IMG/VR virus record: IMGVR_UViG_3300044691_000116
Location: 9,234 to 73,233 of that record
Source of the DNA: a virus
Direction: 5' to 3' (one strand)
DNA length: 64,000 nucleotides
Shown: positions 1,887 through 63,929 of the stretch, piece by piece
How the letters are laid out: each line of letters begins with the position of its first letter
Position numbering within the stretch: position 1 is the stretch's first letter
The notes under the pieces: model-generated
The model's database searches: none
Told to the model about the DNA's origin: nothing
What the model saw: only the letters and a program-made list of their open reading frames with translations
Position numbers and translations under genes: made by a program

Positions 1887-2256
1887 TCGGGAGTTGCTTG
1901 AAGCTGCGGCTCGCGCCTTCTGGGCCGGTGAGATCGACGATGTCGTGTCGATCGAGTGGGGCACCCAGGACGACTGCATTCTGTACACCCACGCCGACAA
2001 CCAAGACCACAACGGCCACGACCGCGCGTTTCGATGGGATCCACTGGAGGAAAATCACGACGCATTCGAGCTGGCGGTGAAACTCAATCTCATGATCTTT
2101 CCGGATGATGACCCAAAGGGGGATCGCCGCTACAGCCTCGTCGAATGCGGGATCACTGGCAAATTCGGATCGGTGGATTGGACTGACGATCCCTATGCCG
2201 CCACCCGTCGGGCCATCGTCCTCTGCGCCGCTGCTCTTGCGAAGGACACCCCATGA
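1879..2256 (+). CDS. Phage hypothetical protein (NinX-like WxPL...DAFELAVKL and AATRRAIV motifs)
   Basis: GGAGGG RBS; motif recognition. Confidence 0.7.
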   Translation: MSDRELLEAAARAFWAGEIDDVVSIEWGTQDDCILYTHADNQDHNGHDRAFRWDPLEENHDAFELAVKLNLMIFPDDDPKGDRRYSLVECGITGKFGSVDWTDDPYAATRRAIVLCAAALAKDTP

Positions 2257-2420
2257 AACTCCGCAACCTGAAGCACCACAACGTCTCCGCCCTGCTGGCA
2301 ACGCCACGCGTCTATCTCCGCGTTCCCGGCGGAATTCCTCGCCAGGACGCCTACCGAGCACTGCGCAACATGACCAAGAATGGCCGCATCGTGTGGCCGA
2401 AGAGGGAGGGGGCATGCTGA
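2253..2420 (+). CDS. Small basic hypothetical protein (55 aa, not in the ORF track)
   Basis: ATGA overlap, AAGGA RBS, translates MKLRNLKHHNVSALL...REGAC*. Confidence 0.6.
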   Translation: MKLRNLKHHNVSALLATPRVYLRVPGGIPRQDAYRALRNMTKNGRIVWPKREGAC

Positions 2421-2707
2421 CCGCTGCGCAACTTGCTACCGAACTGAACGTCAGCGTCCGCCACGTTGAGCGCTGCGCCGCGGCCGGGATGCCGTCCATT
2501 CTCGTCGGCGCCCGAGCCAAGAGGTACGATCCAAAGACCTGCCTATCCTGGCTTGCAGAGCACAGCGGAGAACTGTCCACATGCCGATCAAACGCACCCC
2601 GCAAGGCGGTTTCTCGGTTCGTGTCTGCGTCCGCGGTCAACGAGCTCACCGCCGCCTCGCGCCGGGCACTCCTGCGTCTGACGCAAAGAGAGTCGAATCA
2701 GAGCTGA
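2414..2707 (+). CDS. xis: Excisionase / recombination directionality factor (winged HTH)
   Basis: MLTAAQLATELNVSVRHVER...G.P.I.VG..KRYD pattern; GGAGGGG RBS; overlaps the int 5' end by 127 nt. Confidence 0.75.
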   Translation: MLTAAQLATELNVSVRHVERCAAAGMPSILVGARAKRYDPKTCLSWLAEHSGELSTCRSNAPRKAVSRFVSASAVNELTAASRRALLRLTQRESNQS

Positions 2708-3564
2708 GGGTTGCGCTAGAGCGCAAGGCGCCCGAGAAGCGCTCGGTGGCTATCCCCGGCGACCCACCCATGTTCGACGTGCTCACGCTCTACACCGAGG
2801 AGGCGGAGCACCTGCGCAGCCCGAAGACGAACCAGAGCCATGCCGCCCGGATCGCCGCCCACGTCCGGGAGTACCGGGCCAGTGACGCTCGAGCTTGTGC
2901 AGCAAACTTCGTGAAAAAGGCCCGCGCCGGGAAGTTCGCCGTTGGCACGATCAACCGCAGTTTGGGCTGCATGCGCCGCGGGCTGTATCTCGCGTGGGAG
3001 AAGGGGCTGACGCGCGAGGACTACAGCACCCAGGTCAAGGCGCTCCCCGAGCACAATGCCCGCGAGACGCATCTTTCCGTCGCCGAGGTGCGCACGCTGG
3101 CCGATGCTGCGAGCGAGAACGTTCGGGCAGCCATCTGGATCGCGCTTCTGACGGGGTGCCGGCGAGGCGAGGTCTGCCAGATCAAGGCCAGCGACATCGG
3201 CGCCGACTCGATCCTGATCCGGGCCGGTAACACGAAGACCCTGAAGACGCGCACGGCGCCCATCTTCCCGGCCCTTCGGCCATGGTTGGGCTACCTGCCC
3301 CTTGCTATCAACTTCGAAGGCGTGAAATCTGGCTTCCGGCGCGCGCGTGAGGCTGTCGGAATGCAGCATGTCCAGTACCGTGACCTGCGTCGGTCTTGCG
3401 GGATGCTGCTACTGTCGCTCGACGTTCCGCTCGACGTGATCCGCGACGTGCTCGGCCACGCCAGCATTAAGACCACGGAGACGCACTACGCGCACGCGAT
3501 CGTCTCGCGTCAGCGCTCGGCGCTGGAAAAGCTAGGCGCCCTGACCGAAGGCAAGGCCGCGTAA
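2581..3564 (+). CDS. int: Tyrosine integrase
   Basis: TGCRRGE (R), NTKT (K), RDLRRS (HxxR position), LGH, THY (Y). Confidence 0.95.
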   Translation: MPIKRTPQGGFSVRVCVRGQRAHRRLAPGTPASDAKRVESELRVALERKAPEKRSVAIPGDPPMFDVLTLYTEEAEHLRSPKTNQSHAARIAAHVREYRASDARACAANFVKKARAGKFAVGTINRSLGCMRRGLYLAWEKGLTREDYSTQVKALPEHNARETHLSVAEVRTLADAASENVRAAIWIALLTGCRRGEVCQIKASDIGADSILIRAGNTKTLKTRTAPIFPALRPWLGYLPLAINFEGVKSGFRRAREAVGMQHVQYRDLRRSCGMLLLSLDVPLDVIRDVLGHASIKTTETHYAHAIVSRQRSALEKLGALTEGKAA

Positions 3565-3565
3565 A

Positions 3566-3640
3566 TGGTGGGCGGTGCAGGTTTCGAACCTGCGACCCCG
3601 TCCGTGTGAAGGACGTGCTCTACCCCTGAGCTAACCGCCC
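3566..3640 (-). tRNA. tRNA-Val(CAC), complete, 75 nt with encoded CCA
   Basis: Reverse complement GGGCGGTTAGCTCAGGGGTAGAGCACGTCCTTCACACGGACGGGGTCGCAGGTTCGAAACCTGCACCGCCCACCA folds into a full cloverleaf; anticodon arm CGTCC-TTCACAC-GGACG. Confidence 0.95.
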
Positions 3641-3644
3641 GGCT

Positions 3645-3820
3645 ATGCACCAGTGCCATGCACCAGCAGCCGTAAGTAGTTGATTCATATGGTAAAGCCC
3701 TTGCCGTGTGAAGGCCATTTGGCGGGGCCTGTCGCCCTAGTGCTACCGGGCGTAGAGGGGTCTGCTGACGGGCCGTTTCCGCGTCTGTCGGCCATGGTTT
3801 TGCACCAATCCATGCACCAG
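3645..3820. other. attP: arm-type repeats, IHF site and core
   Basis: TGCACCA(G/A) direct-repeat pairs at 3645-3666 and 3801-3820; IHF consensus WATCAANNNNTTR (AATCAACTACTTA, minus, 3673-3685); core GCCTTCACACGGCAAGGG (minus, 3698-3715). Confidence 0.8.
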
Positions 3821-3841
3821 CCTCAGCGCCAGAATGTCCGA

Positions 3842-4081
3842 ATGCTCTACGACCGCGCCCCCTCCTCCCCCGAGACCGGCCACCCCTGCTGGTACTGCCA
3901 GCACTACGGCGGCCCGGCCTGGGGCGACTCGAGCCTGGCGCTATGCAAGCGCGACGGTGAGCATTGCCGGTCGCAGGCTGAGCGCGGATGCGCGTACTTC
4001 GAACGCCTTCCCGGCGTCGACGATGATGGGTGGGAACCGGCGCCGATGGTCTACAAGCCGCTGAAGCCCATCAAGCGATGA
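3842..4081 (+). CDS. Small Cys-rich (probable Zn-binding) protein
   Basis: CWYCQH...C...C...CAYF; start placed downstream of attP. Confidence 0.6.
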   Translation: MLYDRAPSSPETGHPCWYCQHYGGPAWGDSSLALCKRDGEHCRSQAERGCAYFERLPGVDDDGWEPAPMVYKPLKPIKR

Positions 4082-5255
4082 TGGCTGCCTTTGGCGGCGT
4101 TGCCGGCTTGCGCGTGTGGCCGTCGATCACGCGCTGCAGCAGGTTCAGCACGATCCCCGTGAACACGAGCTTGACCTGGATCTGGTACGGGTCGCGGAAG
4201 AAGATGAACGGCAGGATGCTGACCAGGAGGCAGTACAGCGCGCGGGAGTGCGGCGTTGTCGCCTTGAGGGCCGCGCGCCCCAAGAACGCGCCGACGGCAC
4301 CGACGAACATCAGTCCACCGATGAACCCGAAATTTCCTATCGTGGCGACGATGATGCTTTGCGCGCCGAACGGCGACTGATATTCGGGGTAGAGGTCGGT
4401 CAACTGAACGATGTGGTCGACCTTGTCAGGCCAGATCGAGCTCGGGATTATGTTGACGAATGAGCTGATGAACTCGCCGGGGAACGCGAACCAGTGCCAG
4501 TTGTCGCCGAGCACAAACGAGATCCCGGATATGTCCGTAAACAGCGGCTCGGCGAACAGGAAAAAACCCAGGCCCGCGAGATCGAACGAACCCAGGCGCA
4601 GCATCCCGATCGCCGCGAACACCAGCGGCGCCACGACGATCCACTTGATAATGCGCAACCGATCTTTTCGTGTGCGCGCGACCCATTTCCAGCGATGGAA
4701 AATCACCGCTGCGAACGTCGACGCGACGTAGATCCGGCCGCCCATACTCAGGAGCGCCAACGAGGACACCAGCAACAGCAGGCCGAAGGCGAGCGAGTAT
4801 CTGCGAAGGGCTGCCTCTTTGCACGCGATGTACTGATAGAGCAGAACCATTTCGAGGGTCGCGATCGGGCCCATGAGGCTTGGATCGACGCCGCCCACGT
4901 AACCGCCGAACAGGAGCTCGCGCGCCTGGAGCGCAAACGTGAGTAGCAGGAGCACATAGATCGGAAGAAGGAGCTTGCTCGAAAAGCGCGGCCGCACACC
5001 CGTACGAAAGGGCCTGGACTTGAACTGGCGTGCGACCCAGTTGCCCGCGATGTAGCAGGCCGGCAGCAACAACACGTAGGCCGCCAGTGCGTACCATCGG
5101 GCAGTGCGGAGGTCGAACTGATCGGCAAATGGCGCCGCCTGGTCGACGAGCGCGAACAGGTTGAAGTACCCGGCAGCCATCGGCAGCCCCAGGTAGTAGA
5201 CCCAGCCGATCAGGAACATATGGACGTGGGACAGCTTGCTCGGACTGGGGGTCAT
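4071..5255 (-). CDS. O-antigen/EPS polymerase (Wzy-like) moron
   Basis: ~394 aa, about 10-11 hydrophobic segments, GGR after a TM, large loop followed by IGNFGFIGG; start taken at MTPSPSK. Confidence 0.75.
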   Translation of the reverse strand: MTPSPSKLSHVHMFLIGWVYYLGLPMAAGYFNLFALVDQAAPFADQFDLRTARWYALAAYVLLLPACYIAGNWVARQFKSRPFRTGVRPRFSSKLLLPIYVLLLLTFALQARELLFGGYVGGVDPSLMGPIATLEMVLLYQYIACKEAALRRYSLAFGLLLLVSSLALLSMGGRIYVASTFAAVIFHRWKWVARTRKDRLRIIKWIVVAPLVFAAIGMLRLGSFDLAGLGFFLFAEPLFTDISGISFVLGDNWHWFAFPGEFISSFVNIIPSSIWPDKVDHIVQLTDLYPEYQSPFGAQSIIVATIGNFGFIGGLMFVGAVGAFLGRAALKATTPHSRALYCLLVSILPFIFFRDPYQIQVKLVFTGIVLNLLQRVIDGHTRKPATPPKAAIIA

Positions 5256-5302
5256 CGGCGGCTCGTGAATATCGAGCCGCATTCTCGCATCCCGCCTGAG
5301 GT

Positions 5303-5346
5303 CAAAATCCCCGCCGGCCGTGCAGGCGCCTGCAGCACCGGCGGGG
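5303..5346 (-). terminator. Rho-independent terminator-like hairpin
   Basis: CCCCGCCGG...CCGGCGGGG stem followed by ATTTT on minus. Confidence 0.55.
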
Positions 5347-5380
5347 CCACCCCAACGAAACGATCCCTGACACGAGCCCC

Positions 5381-5424
5381 AAAACGCAGAAAACCGCCCG
5401 ACCGGCGCTAGGCCAGTCGGGCGG
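5381..5424 (-). terminator. Rho-independent terminator-like hairpin
   Basis: CCGCCCGAC...GTCGGGCGG stem followed by TTTTCTGCGTTTT on minus. Confidence 0.65.
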
Positions 5425-5430
5425 ATGATC

Positions 5431-5471
5431 TGTGGATAACCTGTTGACAGGTTATGTGGGTAACTTACAAT
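5431..5471 (+). promoter_or_regulatory. Sigma70-type promoter overlapped by a palindrome and DnaA-box-like 9-mers
   Basis: TTGACA (5444-5449)-N16-TACAAT (5466-5471); TAACCTGT-TG-ACAGGTTA (5437-5454); TGTGGATAA (5431-5439) and TGTGGGTAA (5455-5463). Confidence 0.7.
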
Positions 5472-5477
5472 GCGCGC

Positions 5478-5593
5478 ATCGTAGTCGGGAACTCTGACAC
5501 GCGGGGGCTGCCAGGATGCGCATCCTGGAGAGTTGGCGTTGCGCCCCCTCCGACACGCGAAGAGGGCCGCCGTGCATGGCGGCCTTCGGTTTT
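5478..5593 (+). ncRNA. Candidate structured small RNA
   Basis: Lies between a near-consensus promoter and a terminator-like hairpin (GGCCGCC...GGCGGCC, then TTCGGTTTT); several complementary segments; no ORF with an RBS. Confidence 0.5.
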
Positions 5594-5850
5594 CAGGGCC
5601 GCCGCGACAGCCTTCCGTGCAGCCACATCCCGGCCATCGCACCCAGGCCGGCACCGAACCCGATCGGCAGCACAATCCAGCCCCACCCGCGCGTCGCCGC
5701 CTGCCAAGTGACGTACACCTCGCAGACGGCCATCGCAAGCGACGTCGGCAACACCCACAGATACTTGCCGCTCGAGACGTTGAGTTGCTGAAACGATTTG
5801 AGCAGCACGAAGACGAAGGCGGACGAGAAGGCCAGGGCGAACAGCATCAT
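5593..5850 (-). CDS. Small membrane protein (~3 TM)
   Basis: MMLFALAFSSAFVFVLLK...; ATGA coupling with the upstream gene. Confidence 0.75.
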   Translation of the reverse strand: MMLFALAFSSAFVFVLLKSFQQLNVSSGKYLWVLPTSLAMAVCEVYVTWQAATRGWGWIVLPIGFGAGLGAMAGMWLHGRLSRRP

Positions 5851-63521: not shown

Positions 63522-63929
63522 GTGAACGCACCGCAATCCGTCCAGTCGCACTTCGCGACCATCGCCGCGCTGGCGATCGGCGCCACCCTCGAAGGCGGCC
63601 AGTTCGCAGGCCTCATCACGCTCCCGGACGGCAAGCACGTCGCCGTGGTGCTGCTGCCCAACAAATCCGACAAGCGCCTGCGCTGGGCCGACGCCATGGC
63701 CTGGGCAACGGAAGTCGGCGGCCAGTTGCCGTCGCGCCCCGTCGCCGCGCTGCTGTTTGCGAACCTCCGCGGCGAGTTCGAGAAGACCTGGCACTGGACG
63801 AACGAGACGCACGAAGCAGACGACTCGTGTGCCTGGGGTTGCAGCTTCCTCGGCGGCTACCAGGGCCACAACGGCAAGTCCTCCGAGGGCAGCGCCCGAG
63901 CCGTCCGCTTGATTCACATCACCGACTGA
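63522..63929 (+). CDS. DUF1566 (Lcl/C-type-lectin-fold) protein
   Basis: GG.FAG, W.DA..WA...GG.LPSR, WHWT.E, AW...F..G.Q....K.....ARAVR. Confidence 0.85.
   Translation: MNAPQSVQSHFATIAALAIGATLEGGQFAGLITLPDGKHVAVVLLPNKSDKRLRWADAMAWATEVGGQLPSRPVAALLFANLRGEFEKTWHWTNETHEADDSCAWGCSFLGGYQGHNGKSSEGSARAVRLIHITD

What the first reader, a model, noticed from the sequence alone, without database searches (positions are those of the whole stretch)
3566..3820. attP appears to destroy a host tRNA-Val(CAC) and supply a complete replacement with a different anticodon stem
Seen: a full tRNA-Val(CAC) on minus (3566-3640). 57 nt upstream of it, between two pairs of TGCACCA arm repeats and beside a consensus IHF site, is a second isolated anticodon stem-loop, GCC-TTCACAC-GGC (core 3698-3715). 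It has the same orientation and the same 7-nt loop but a different outer stem from the phage tRNA (GTCC/GGAC), and it is not followed by a tRNA 3' half. Established: many tyrosine integrases cross over in the 7-nt anticodon loop, and attP normally restores the gene's 3' half; complementation by a phage tRNA has been reported for some mycobacteriophages. Inference: integration splits the host tRNA without repair. It also places the intact phage tRNA just downstream of the host tRNA promoter, and the altered stem keeps the phage copy from being a target itself.
Basis: partly seen in the sequence, partly recalled or inferred. Interest (0 to 1): 0.85.

Follow-up and report, generated by a model that had tools for sequence, protein, structure and literature searches.

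The report
Phage tRNA replaces split host tRNA
This temperate phage keeps a complete valine tRNA gene right beside a very short attachment site, so integration most likely cuts the host's valine tRNA gene in two and leaves the phage copy in its place; this strategy was described in 2024 for mycobacteriophages and appears here in a different bacterial group with a more compact layout.

Summary
The integrase gene (2581-3564) abuts a complete tRNA-Val(CAC) at 3566-3640 on the minus strand. An isolated copy of its anticodon stem-loop lies at 3701-3717. It sits between two pairs of TGCACCA repeats and next to an IHF-like motif, and no tRNA half flanks it.

I classified 144 loci of this integrase family.
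- 100 are classical: attP holds tRNA positions ~29-75, or a lysogen holds a rebuilt tRNA.
- 27 have the window's layout: isolated core, 62-79 nt spacer with arm repeats, complete tRNA.
- 17 are unresolved.

Four of the 27 are lysogen junctions in which the host tRNA 5' part is fused at the anticodon arm to phage DNA, followed by the phage tRNA and int. In two genomes the host 3' part lies unrepaired 36 kb and 48.5 kb away. Seven of 7 related genomes carry the intact gene at that site.

All 27 phage tRNAs keep a perfect cloverleaf, and each has an anticodon stem unlike its own core.

The mechanism is already published as tRNA-dependent lysogeny (PMC10865867). What looks new is the host group, the tRNA placed inside attP and the recoded stem. 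No junctions of this phage itself were seen.

The parts
2581..3564 (+). Tyrosine integrase, 327 aa. Its stop codon lies one base from the 3' end of the tRNA.
   Evidence: Pfam PF00589, E 3.2e-16. 1164 homologues at E <= 0.001, the best 80% identical over full length.
3566..3640 (-). Complete phage-borne tRNA-Val(CAC) with encoded CCA and discriminator A. Anticodon arm CGTCC-TTCACAC-GGACG, loop at 3604-3610.
   Evidence: ARAGORN. Rfam RF00005, 65.6 bits. It is one of 27 family phage tRNAs in which 100% of 420 cloverleaf cells pair.
3643..3667 (+). Inner (P') arm: two direct TGCACCA repeats at 3646-3652 and 3659-3665. These are the presumed arm-type integrase binding sites between the core and the tRNA.
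   Evidence: Relatives carry two GGTGTAA/GGTGCAA repeats at the same position.
3673..3685 (-). IHF-like motif AATCAACTACTTA, between the core and the P' repeats.
   Evidence: 2 matches in the window, 0.39 expected. The same motif sits at the same place in many relatives. Binding was not tested.
3701..3717 (-). attP core. It is an isolated mimic of the host tRNA-Val(CAC) anticodon arm. The presumed 7-nt overlap is 3706-3712, and the half-sites are 3701-3705 and 3713-3717. It shares 14 contiguous nt (3702-3715) with the usual host arm.
   Evidence: The junctions of 4 related lysogens fall at the equivalent element.
3801..3819 (+). Outer (P) arm: two direct TGCACCA repeats at 3801-3807 and 3813-3819, starting 89 nt (3801) and 101 nt (3813) beyond the loop.
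   Evidence: In G001 and G002, arm repeats lie about 80 nt from the core at the far prophage junction.
2105..2707 (+). ORF upstream of int that overlaps its start. It resembles an excisionase or regulator only weakly. Listed as context.
   Evidence: PHROGs phrog_66, E 8.3e-5, and phrog_57, E 7.2e-6. Weak.
3537..3553 (-). Terminator-like hairpin 13 nt past the tRNA 3' end, inside the last codons of int on the opposite strand. Uncertain.
   Evidence: 1 site found in 3400-4200, 0.3 expected.

Best explanation
The region 3566-3819 is an attP site of the replacement type. The integrase binds the TGCACCA arm repeats on both sides. With help from a bending protein at the IHF-like site, it pairs the 17-nt core (3701-3717) with the anticodon stem-loop of the host tRNA-Val(CAC) gene. 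Strand exchange takes place in the 7-nt loop sequence.

AttP holds only about 14 nt of tRNA-like sequence, so neither junction rebuilds a tRNA. The host 5' part ends up fused to the phage P' arm. The host 3' part is left at the other end of the prophage.

The complete phage tRNA-Val(CAC) lies 65 nt beyond the loop in the same orientation. After integration it therefore sits about 65 nt downstream of the truncated host 5' part and serves as the cell's tRNA-Val(CAC). Excision would restore the host gene.

Shown, in relatives only: the junction structure, the intact empty site, and the conservation and covariation of the phage tRNA.

Inferred:
- that this phage does the same;
- that the phage tRNA is transcribed from the host tRNA promoter (about even odds);
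- that its recoded anticodon stem stops the integrase from using it as a second core (somewhat better than even odds);
- that carrying a whole tRNA frees the phage from having to match the host's acceptor and T stems.
For: Anatomy in the window.

Free-phage state. Phage genes lie on both sides: an exonuclease, tail sheath, baseplate and terminase to the right, and a diversity-generating retroelement to the left. One 68,522-nt contig of run X1, which may be this record's own source, spans 3000-4400 with no differences and no joints.

Family survey of 144 loci (with hand corrections):
- 80 classical attP sites holding tRNA positions ~29-75;
- 20 full tRNAs with host-type stems and no extra core;
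- 27 with the window's layout;
- 17 unresolved.

Lysogen evidence. L011, L013, L139 and L207 show host tRNA positions 1-43 fused to phage arm DNA, then an intact and different tRNA-Val(CAC), then int. In G001 and G002 the host 3' part (positions 29-75) lies about 48.5 kb and 36 kb away, preceded by phage arm repeats. The two G001 pieces, joined over their overlap, equal the intact tRNA of a relative. The same flank carries an intact gene in 7 of 7 relatives' loci.

Phage tRNAs. There are 27 sequences, 20 of them distinct. 100% of 420 cells pair, 16 of 21 pairs show compensatory changes, all 5 anticodon-stem pairs covary, and 0 of 500 shuffles reach this.

Stem and core. Each phage tRNA differs from its own core at 2-7 of the 10 stem positions (median 5), and 3 of the 27 also differ in the loop (CTCACAC). 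In the other direction, all 20 full tRNAs that lack an extra core carry CTGCC/GGCAG, TTGCC/GGCAA or CTGCA/TGCAG. About 121 of the 150 listed chromosomal tRNA-Val(CAC) arms in 301 genomes of the order are CTGCC/GGCAG, and none is CGTCC/GGACG (my count by eye; two of these rows come from the unpublished genomes G058 and G326).

Geometry and precedent. The spacing from loop to tRNA is fixed at 62-79 nt in all 27. No terminator-like site lies on the tRNA strand between the host 5' part and the phage tRNA in L011. The same mechanism was shown experimentally in mycobacteriophages (PMC10865867: abstract and sections 5, 6, 9, 10, 11 read).
Against: - No integrated copy of this phage or of a near relative was found. 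The closest integrases in the fetched loci are 65% identical or less, and those are classical. The phage's exact tRNA arm occurs in no related IMG/VR record.
- Contigs from four runs show only the unintegrated form.
- The host of this phage is unknown, so its attB is assumed from the consensus.
- Lysogens G001 and G002 also carry tRNA-Val(TAC) and tRNA-Val(GAC). The split tRNA may therefore be dispensable and the phage copy helpful rather than required.
- Promoter capture is unproven. The simple scan calls no promoter upstream of the host tRNA in L011. What I see by eye is a conserved TTGACC, then 17 nt, then T-n-T/A-A-A-T, then a GC-rich stretch; it lacks the A at position 2 of the -10 hexamer.
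- In L155 the phage tRNA and the core share the inner 3 bp of the stem, which weakens the self-protection idea.
- The loci are redundant: 126 integrase rows give 111 distinct sequences, and several viral and metagenome loci are the same contig.
Confidence: 0.8

Rival explanations
1. The phage tRNA is kept mainly for another reason, and replacing the split host gene is incidental. Possible reasons are supplying GUG decoding during lytic growth, or escaping host nucleases that cut tRNA anticodon arms. The short core would then reflect relaxed selection once a tRNA was present.
For: The lysogens keep tRNA-Val(TAC) and tRNA-Val(GAC), so losing the CAC species need not be lethal. The Discussion of PMC10865867 itself raises defence evasion and cites a paper on anticodon-loop changes in phage tRNAs. 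Recoded stems and the C32 loops of 3 of the 27 phage tRNAs would also suit nuclease evasion.
Against: The tRNA is always the same isoacceptor as the split gene. It is always 62-79 nt from the core and always co-oriented with it, in 27 of 27 loci. None of the 80 classical attP relatives has a full tRNA within about 900 nt of int. That linkage is what complementation predicts and what a lytic-growth role does not.
Confidence: 0.12
2. The complete tRNA is itself the attachment site, with crossover inside 3566-3640 as in classical elements. The isolated stem-loop would be a dead relic or a regulatory hairpin.
For: The tRNA abuts int, as the rebuilt tRNA does in classical lysogens. The tRNA and the core share the identical 7-nt loop.
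Against: The arm repeats flank the isolated core, not the tRNA. In all 4 related lysogen junctions the phage tRNA is intact and the host sequence is joined at the isolated core. No second copy of any tRNA piece exists in the 73-kb record. The tRNA stem differs from the usual host stems.
Confidence: 0.05
3. The record is a prophage with host flank or a mis-assembly, the tRNA is a host gene, and the second stem-loop is chance.
For: IMG/VR classes the record as linear with no end repeats.
Against: Phage genes lie on both sides. An independent-length contig spans the site. The 11-mer repeat is not expected by chance. The layout recurs in 26 other loci.
Confidence: 0.03

Closest known systems
tRNA-dependent lysogeny of actinobacteriophages: Fionnbharth (K4), Cluster L, Cain (K6), Gaia (X), Gordonia CQ2/DL. 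Guerrero-Bustamante and Hatfull, mBio 2024, PMC10865867 (abstract and sections 5, 6, 9, 10, 11 read).
   Same: - A tyrosine integrase with arm-type sites.
- attB lies in a host tRNA gene at the anticodon region.
- The common core is only 8-17 bp (14 here), so no tRNA is rebuilt.
- The phage carries a tRNA of the same anticodon.
- Close relatives in the same integrase family use the classical long core and carry no tRNA, and the trait is scattered on the integrase tree.
   Different: - The hosts here are Betaproteobacteria-level taxa, and the target is tRNA-Val(CAC) rather than Lys, Ile2 or Leu.
- The tRNA lies inside attP at a fixed 62-79 nt from the core and is co-oriented with the host gene. 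In Fionnbharth it overlaps a distant gene and has its own demonstrated promoter. In Cluster L it lies in or near a tRNA cluster.
- Every phage copy here has a recoded anticodon stem. The paper instead speculates that the plasmid-borne tRNA can serve as a second attB.
- The requirement for viability was shown there and is untested here; the hosts here have other valine tRNAs.
- The paper's supplementary figures on arm sites and tRNA positions could not be seen.
[quoted passage not shown]
   Same: A proteobacterial case reported from genomes. Integration in the central part of tRNA-Leu(UAG) inactivates that gene, and the prophage carries its own tRNA-Leu(UAG), which is only about 80% like the host gene.
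   Different: Two prophages in one species, with a different tRNA and a different integrase. In the passages I read there was no description of the tRNA's position relative to attP, of stem recoding, or of a family-wide alternation with the classical mode.
Classical anticodon-loop integration into tRNA genes. This includes the 100 classical members of this same integrase family. The general class is as I recall it from Williams 2002, which I did not read.
   Same: The same integrase family, the same target tRNA, the same crossover region and the same arm-repeat motif family.
   Different: Classical attP carries tRNA positions ~29-75, so a hybrid tRNA is rebuilt next to int. The window's attP stops after the anticodon arm.
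Lactobacillus johnsonii prophage Lj965, as cited in the Discussion of PMC10865867. The primary papers were not read.
   Same: It is said to fail to rebuild the tRNA at a junction and to encode a cognate tRNA.
   Different: A Firmicute host. I did not examine the details.

Membership tests
tRNA-dependent lysogeny (PMC10865867) | A phage-encoded tyrosine integrase with arm-type sites flanking the core | tested here: met
   PF00589. Two TGCACCA repeats lie on each side of the core. Binding itself was not tested.
tRNA-dependent lysogeny (PMC10865867) | attB overlaps a host tRNA gene | tested here: inconclusive
   Met in relatives: 4 junctions, 2 far junctions and 7 of 7 intact empty sites. For the window phage it rests on the 14-nt match of its core to the usual host arm. 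No lysogen of this phage was found.
tRNA-dependent lysogeny (PMC10865867) | The common core is too short to rebuild a functional tRNA at attL or attR | tested here: met
   The core is 17 nt, with 14 nt shared with the host arm, and no 5' or 3' tRNA half lies next to it. In G001 and G002 both host parts remain incomplete. ARAGORN does call a 72-nt pseudo-tRNA at the G001 far junction; it finds none at the G002 far junction.
tRNA-dependent lysogeny (PMC10865867) | [quoted passage not shown] | tested here: met
   tRNA-Val(CAC) at 3566-3640. The cloverleaf is conserved with covariation across 27 family copies.
tRNA-dependent lysogeny (PMC10865867) | The phage tRNA is required for survival of lysogens (clear-plaque phenotype when it is deleted) | not testable with these tools
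   This needs phage genetics. One caution: the lysogens G001 and G002 retain tRNA-Val(TAC) and tRNA-Val(GAC).
Classical tRNA-restoring attP (anticodon-loop class) | attP carries the tRNA sequence from the crossover to the 3' end, so that a hybrid tRNA is rebuilt | tested here: not met
   Sequence 3' of the window's core is not tRNA-like. The feature is met in 80 relatives.
Lambda-type attP architecture | A bending-protein (IHF) site between the core and the arm sites | tested here: inconclusive
   A motif match lies at 3673-3685 and recurs in many relatives. Other relatives have a different conserved motif at that place. Binding was not tested.

The most novel reading that the evidence does not exclude
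The unit made of core, P' arm and a complete tRNA with a recoded stem is a self-contained, promoter-less cassette. It has spread or arisen many times within one integrase family. It turns a tRNA-restoring phage into one that destroys the host gene and takes over that gene's promoter. The recoded anticodon stem is selected to keep the integrase off the phage's own tRNA. Carrying a whole tRNA removes the need for the phage's 3' half to pair with each host's 5' half, which widens the range of usable hosts. As a side effect, bacterial tRNA-Val(CAC) alleles are replaced by phage ones.
Probability: 0.35. Interest if true: 0.7.

Novelty: new variant of a known kind. Interest (0 to 1): 0.5.

Why it matters
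This extends tRNA-dependent lysogeny from actinobacteriophages to a large family of uncultured phages of Betaproteobacteria-level hosts; 27 of the 144 loci surveyed show it. The authors of the 2024 paper left open whether that would be the case.

The compact layout also poses questions that can be tested.
- Can a prophage take over a host tRNA promoter?
- Does an integrase tell a tRNA arm from its own core by the stem sequence alone?
- Does a whole-tRNA cassette solve the mismatch problem of hybrid tRNAs? One classical lysogen here, L214, has a mispaired acceptor stem.

There is a practical point as well. Prophage finders that look for a rebuilt tRNA plus a displaced 3' fragment will misplace the ends of such elements, and they will count the phage tRNA as the host's.

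Tried and rejected
- Single-protein scans for close integrase relatives found nothing in genome contigs or viral contigs. An alignment-based query was needed.
- BLAST of the region against GenBank phages matched only the tRNA.
- Exact searches of IMG/VR for the window's tRNA arm gave 0 matches for the long pattern. The 17-mer gave 9 unrelated matches, none with a related integrase. So no lysogen of a near relative was found.
- Sequencing runs. No RNA holder was listed. All four runs laid were contigs and showed no joints at the core. Small contigs of X2 (3267-3736, 22 differences) and X3 (3682-3832, 13 differences) carry the unintegrated form. This says nothing about integration or expression.
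- Promoter scans found nothing in the window at 3400-4200 and nothing upstream of the host tRNA in L011.
- I considered that the record might be a host-flanked provirus, and rejected this on gene content.
- I considered a simple deletion between the core and the tRNA loop as the route from the replacement layout to the classical one. I set it aside because it would remove the P' arm repeats.
- L199 has an isolated core with arm repeats but no tRNA within the 1.1 kb available. L208 and L010 have no recognisable site. These three are left unclassified.
- The integrase tree is FastTree only. The number of switches (at least 19, of which 13 are forced by well-supported branches) should be read loosely.
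Supplementary files of PMC10865867 (arm sites, tRNA maps) were not available and may bear on how different the layout really is.

Full report
WHAT IS THERE

The window is bases 9234-73233 of a 73,233-nt virus record that is classed as linear and estimated complete. A 327-aa tyrosine integrase (PF00589) occupies 2581-3564 on the + strand. One base after its stop codon, on the minus strand, lies the only tRNA of the window: tRNA-Val(CAC) at 3566-3640 (ARAGORN; Rfam 65.6 bits).

Reading on in the tRNA's upstream direction, the elements are:
- two TGCACCA repeats at 3646 and 3659;
- a match to the IHF consensus at 3673-3685 (consensus recalled);
- a 17-nt stem-loop at 3701-3717;
- after about 85 nt, two more TGCACCA repeats at 3801 and 3813.

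The stem-loop shares an exact 11-mer with the tRNA's anticodon arm. That 11-mer occurs only at these two places in the window, against 0.02 expected. It is not flanked by either half of a tRNA.

Phage genes lie on both sides. To the right are an exonuclease, baseplate, tail sheath and large terminase. To the left are a weak excisionase-like ORF and, at the start of the record, a diversity-generating retroelement. No other piece of the tRNA occurs in the record. So this is the unintegrated phage form, and the region has the anatomy of an attP site whose core imitates an anticodon arm.

WHAT RELATIVES SHOW

The integrase has more than a thousand homologues. With an alignment of 30 of them I fetched loci from species genomes, IMG/VR and metagenomes. 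I then classified every locus whose integrase is at least 40% identical and reaches residue 300. That gave 144 loci including the window.

- Eighty loci carry, just past int, only tRNA-Val positions about 29-75. This is the classical attP that restores the gene after crossover in the anticodon loop.
- Twenty carry a full tRNA and no extra core. All twenty have the stems CTGCC/GGCAG, TTGCC/GGCAA or CTGCA/TGCAG, as expected for rebuilt host genes in classical lysogens.
- Twenty-seven have the window's layout. The script found 18 attP forms and 4 junction forms. I reassigned 5 more by eye: L009, L100, L103, L131 and L197.
- Seventeen are unresolved, and 13 of them have under 120 nt of sequence available after int.

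Many loci are duplicates or near-duplicates: 126 integrase rows give 111 distinct sequences, and the 27 phage tRNAs give 20 distinct sequences.

THE LYSOGEN JUNCTIONS

In L011 (an Azonexus genome bin), L013, L139 (an IMG/VR provirus) and L207, the sequence read in tRNA sense has this order:
- host upstream DNA;
- host tRNA-Val positions 1-43, ending with a complete anticodon arm;
- about 62-75 nt of phage DNA with two arm repeats;
- a complete but different tRNA-Val(CAC);
- int.

In the genomes of L011 and L013, the host tRNA's positions 29-75 lie about 48.5 kb and 36 kb away on the same strand. They are preceded by non-tRNA phage DNA that carries two or three arm repeats about 80 nt upstream, and they are followed by a host terminator.

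Joined over their shared arm, the two G001 pieces give exactly the tRNA of a relative. In 7 of 7 loci fetched from same-genus relatives, the same upstream flank is followed by an intact 75-nt tRNA-Val(CAC) whose 3' 47 nt are 98-100% identical to the G001 fragment.

So in these relatives the host gene is split, neither half is repaired, and the junction lies at the isolated core while the phage tRNA stays whole. BLAST with the window tRNA found no other tRNA-Val(CAC) in either genome bin. Both bins do have tRNA-Val(GAC) and tRNA-Val(TAC).

THE PHAGE tRNA

Across the 27 copies, every one of the 420 stem cells forms a standard pair. Sixteen of 21 pairs show changes on both sides, including all five anticodon-stem pairs, and no shuffle or slid control comes close. 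All copies keep the CAC anticodon, discriminator A and an encoded CCA. They are therefore under selection as tRNAs.

None has the host-type anticodon stem. The stems seen are CCACC (13 copies), CCACA, CTACC, CGTCC (the window), CGTCG, CCTCG, CCTGC, TCGCA, TCGCT, TCCGC and TTCGC.

Each phage tRNA differs from the core beside it at 2-7 of the 10 stem positions, with a median of 5. Three also have C instead of T at the first loop position.

A pattern survey of 301 genomes of the order found a match in 170 genomes, 160 of them with a single copy. About 121 of the 150 listed arms are CTGCC/GGCAG, and none is the window's CGTCC/GGACG. These counts are mine, made by eye. Thirty-one matches were not listed. 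The pattern could not match the CCACC type, whose D stem differs.

The cores follow the hosts instead. Most read nnGCC-TTCACAC-GGCAG, and a minority read nnGCA-TTCACAC-TGCAn, which matches the CTGCA/TGCAG host type.

HOW IT MOST LIKELY WORKS

The integrase, bound to arm repeats on both sides and helped by a bend at the IHF-like site, exchanges strands between the 7-nt loop sequence of the core (3706-3712) and that of the host tRNA gene. This step rests on geometry and on the family's junctions; it was not measured here.

Integration places the phage tRNA 65 nt (62-79 nt across the family) downstream of the truncated host 5' part, in the same orientation.

Upstream of the host gene in L011, L013 and L139 I see by eye a conserved promoter-like arrangement. 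The tool's stricter scan does not call it. No terminator-like site lies on that strand before the phage tRNA. No promoter-like site lies upstream of the tRNA in the free phage. I therefore think it somewhat likely, at about even odds, that the phage tRNA is expressed from the captured host promoter and released by normal tRNA processing.

The recoded stem most plausibly keeps the integrase from treating the phage tRNA as a second core only about 100 nt away; that would otherwise invite deletion of the P' arm or secondary integrations. Neutral drift and evasion of anticodon nucleases are alternatives. L155, where the inner three base pairs are the same, argues against a simple rule.

A further benefit is suggested by L214. 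This is a classical lysogen whose rebuilt tRNA pairs a host 5' acceptor strand with a phage 3' strand and ends up with an A-C mismatch and a G-U pair. A whole tRNA avoids that problem.

COMPARISON WITH WHAT IS KNOWN

This mechanism was described in 2024 as tRNA-dependent lysogeny in mycobacteriophages and other actinobacteriophages. Its features there are cores of 8-17 bp, a cognate phage tRNA, a genetic requirement for that tRNA, classical and tRNA-dependent members interleaved on the integrase tree, and an explicit suggestion that it may occur elsewhere (PMC10865867).

A genome survey of Sinorhizobium meliloti reported two prophages that inactivate tRNA-Leu(UAG) and carry their own copy (PMC11476347, passages).

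A search for the term 'tRNA-dependent lysogeny' found 23 papers. None has a title that concerns Betaproteobacteria or tRNA-Val. A search combining tRNA-Val, attB, prophage and anticodon gave one unrelated paper. I did not see the supplements.

The window therefore belongs to a known kind. As far as those searches go, the following are new:
- the host group and the target tRNA;
- the size of the family in which both modes alternate, with at least 19 changes on a FastTree tree and 13 forced by well-supported branches;
- the placement of the tRNA inside attP at a fixed distance and orientation, whereas Fionnbharth's tRNA lies elsewhere with its own promoter;
- the systematic recoding of the anticodon stem.

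VERDICT

For this phage itself it remains an inference, because no integrated copy was found. Whether the host needs the replacement is open, because other valine tRNAs are present. Interest is moderate: this is a good, well-documented extension of a recent discovery, with two testable twists, rather than a new principle.

Noticed in passing
window 63820-63908; record positions 89-178, 592-686 and 1264-1358 (L002): A diversity-generating retroelement. The template repeat at record 1264-1358 lies next to a reverse transcriptase ORF (record 1088-2449, PF00078). It matches three variable repeats at the 3' ends of tandem paralogous genes with a weak Lcl_C-type domain. There are 8, 9 and 12 mismatches, and every one falls at an adenine of the template. 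One target lies at the end of the window and two at the start of the record, which suggests that the record is circularly permuted.
   Followed up: partly
L214:501-575 (minus strand): In a classical lysogen of the same integrase family, the rebuilt hybrid tRNA-Val has acceptor strands that do not match: one A-C mismatch and one G-U pair. This illustrates a cost of the restoring mode when phage and host tRNAs differ.
   Followed up: no
L100, L131, L197 (phage tRNAs): Three phage-borne tRNA-Val(CAC) copies have the anticodon loop CTCACAC, with C at position 32, while their own cores keep TTCACAC. This puts a mismatch in the presumed overlap region.
   Followed up: partly
L199:1432-1700: Arm repeats on both sides of an isolated core, but no tRNA within the 1.1 kb available. 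This may be a member whose tRNA lies elsewhere, or one without a replacement.
   Followed up: no
L163:688-759 (G001 far junction): ARAGORN calls a 72-nt 'tRNA-Val' made of the host 3' part plus phage DNA that happens to supply a partial acceptor strand. No such call is made at the G002 junction. It is probably spurious, but it would mislead automatic annotation.
   Followed up: no
L009, L084, L100, L131: In four relatives the whole unit of core, arm repeats and tRNA is inverted relative to int. PMC10865867 notes an inverted attP for Omega and Gaia.
   Followed up: no
window 3537-3553 (minus strand): A terminator-like hairpin with a T-run lies 13 nt past the tRNA 3' end, inside the last codons of int on the opposite strand. 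It might stop tRNA transcription from running antisense into int.
   Followed up: no
window 3834-4064 and 4071-5738: The two ORFs just right of attP have no Pfam or PHROGs match. They are 76 aa (+ strand) and 555 aa (minus strand).
   Followed up: no
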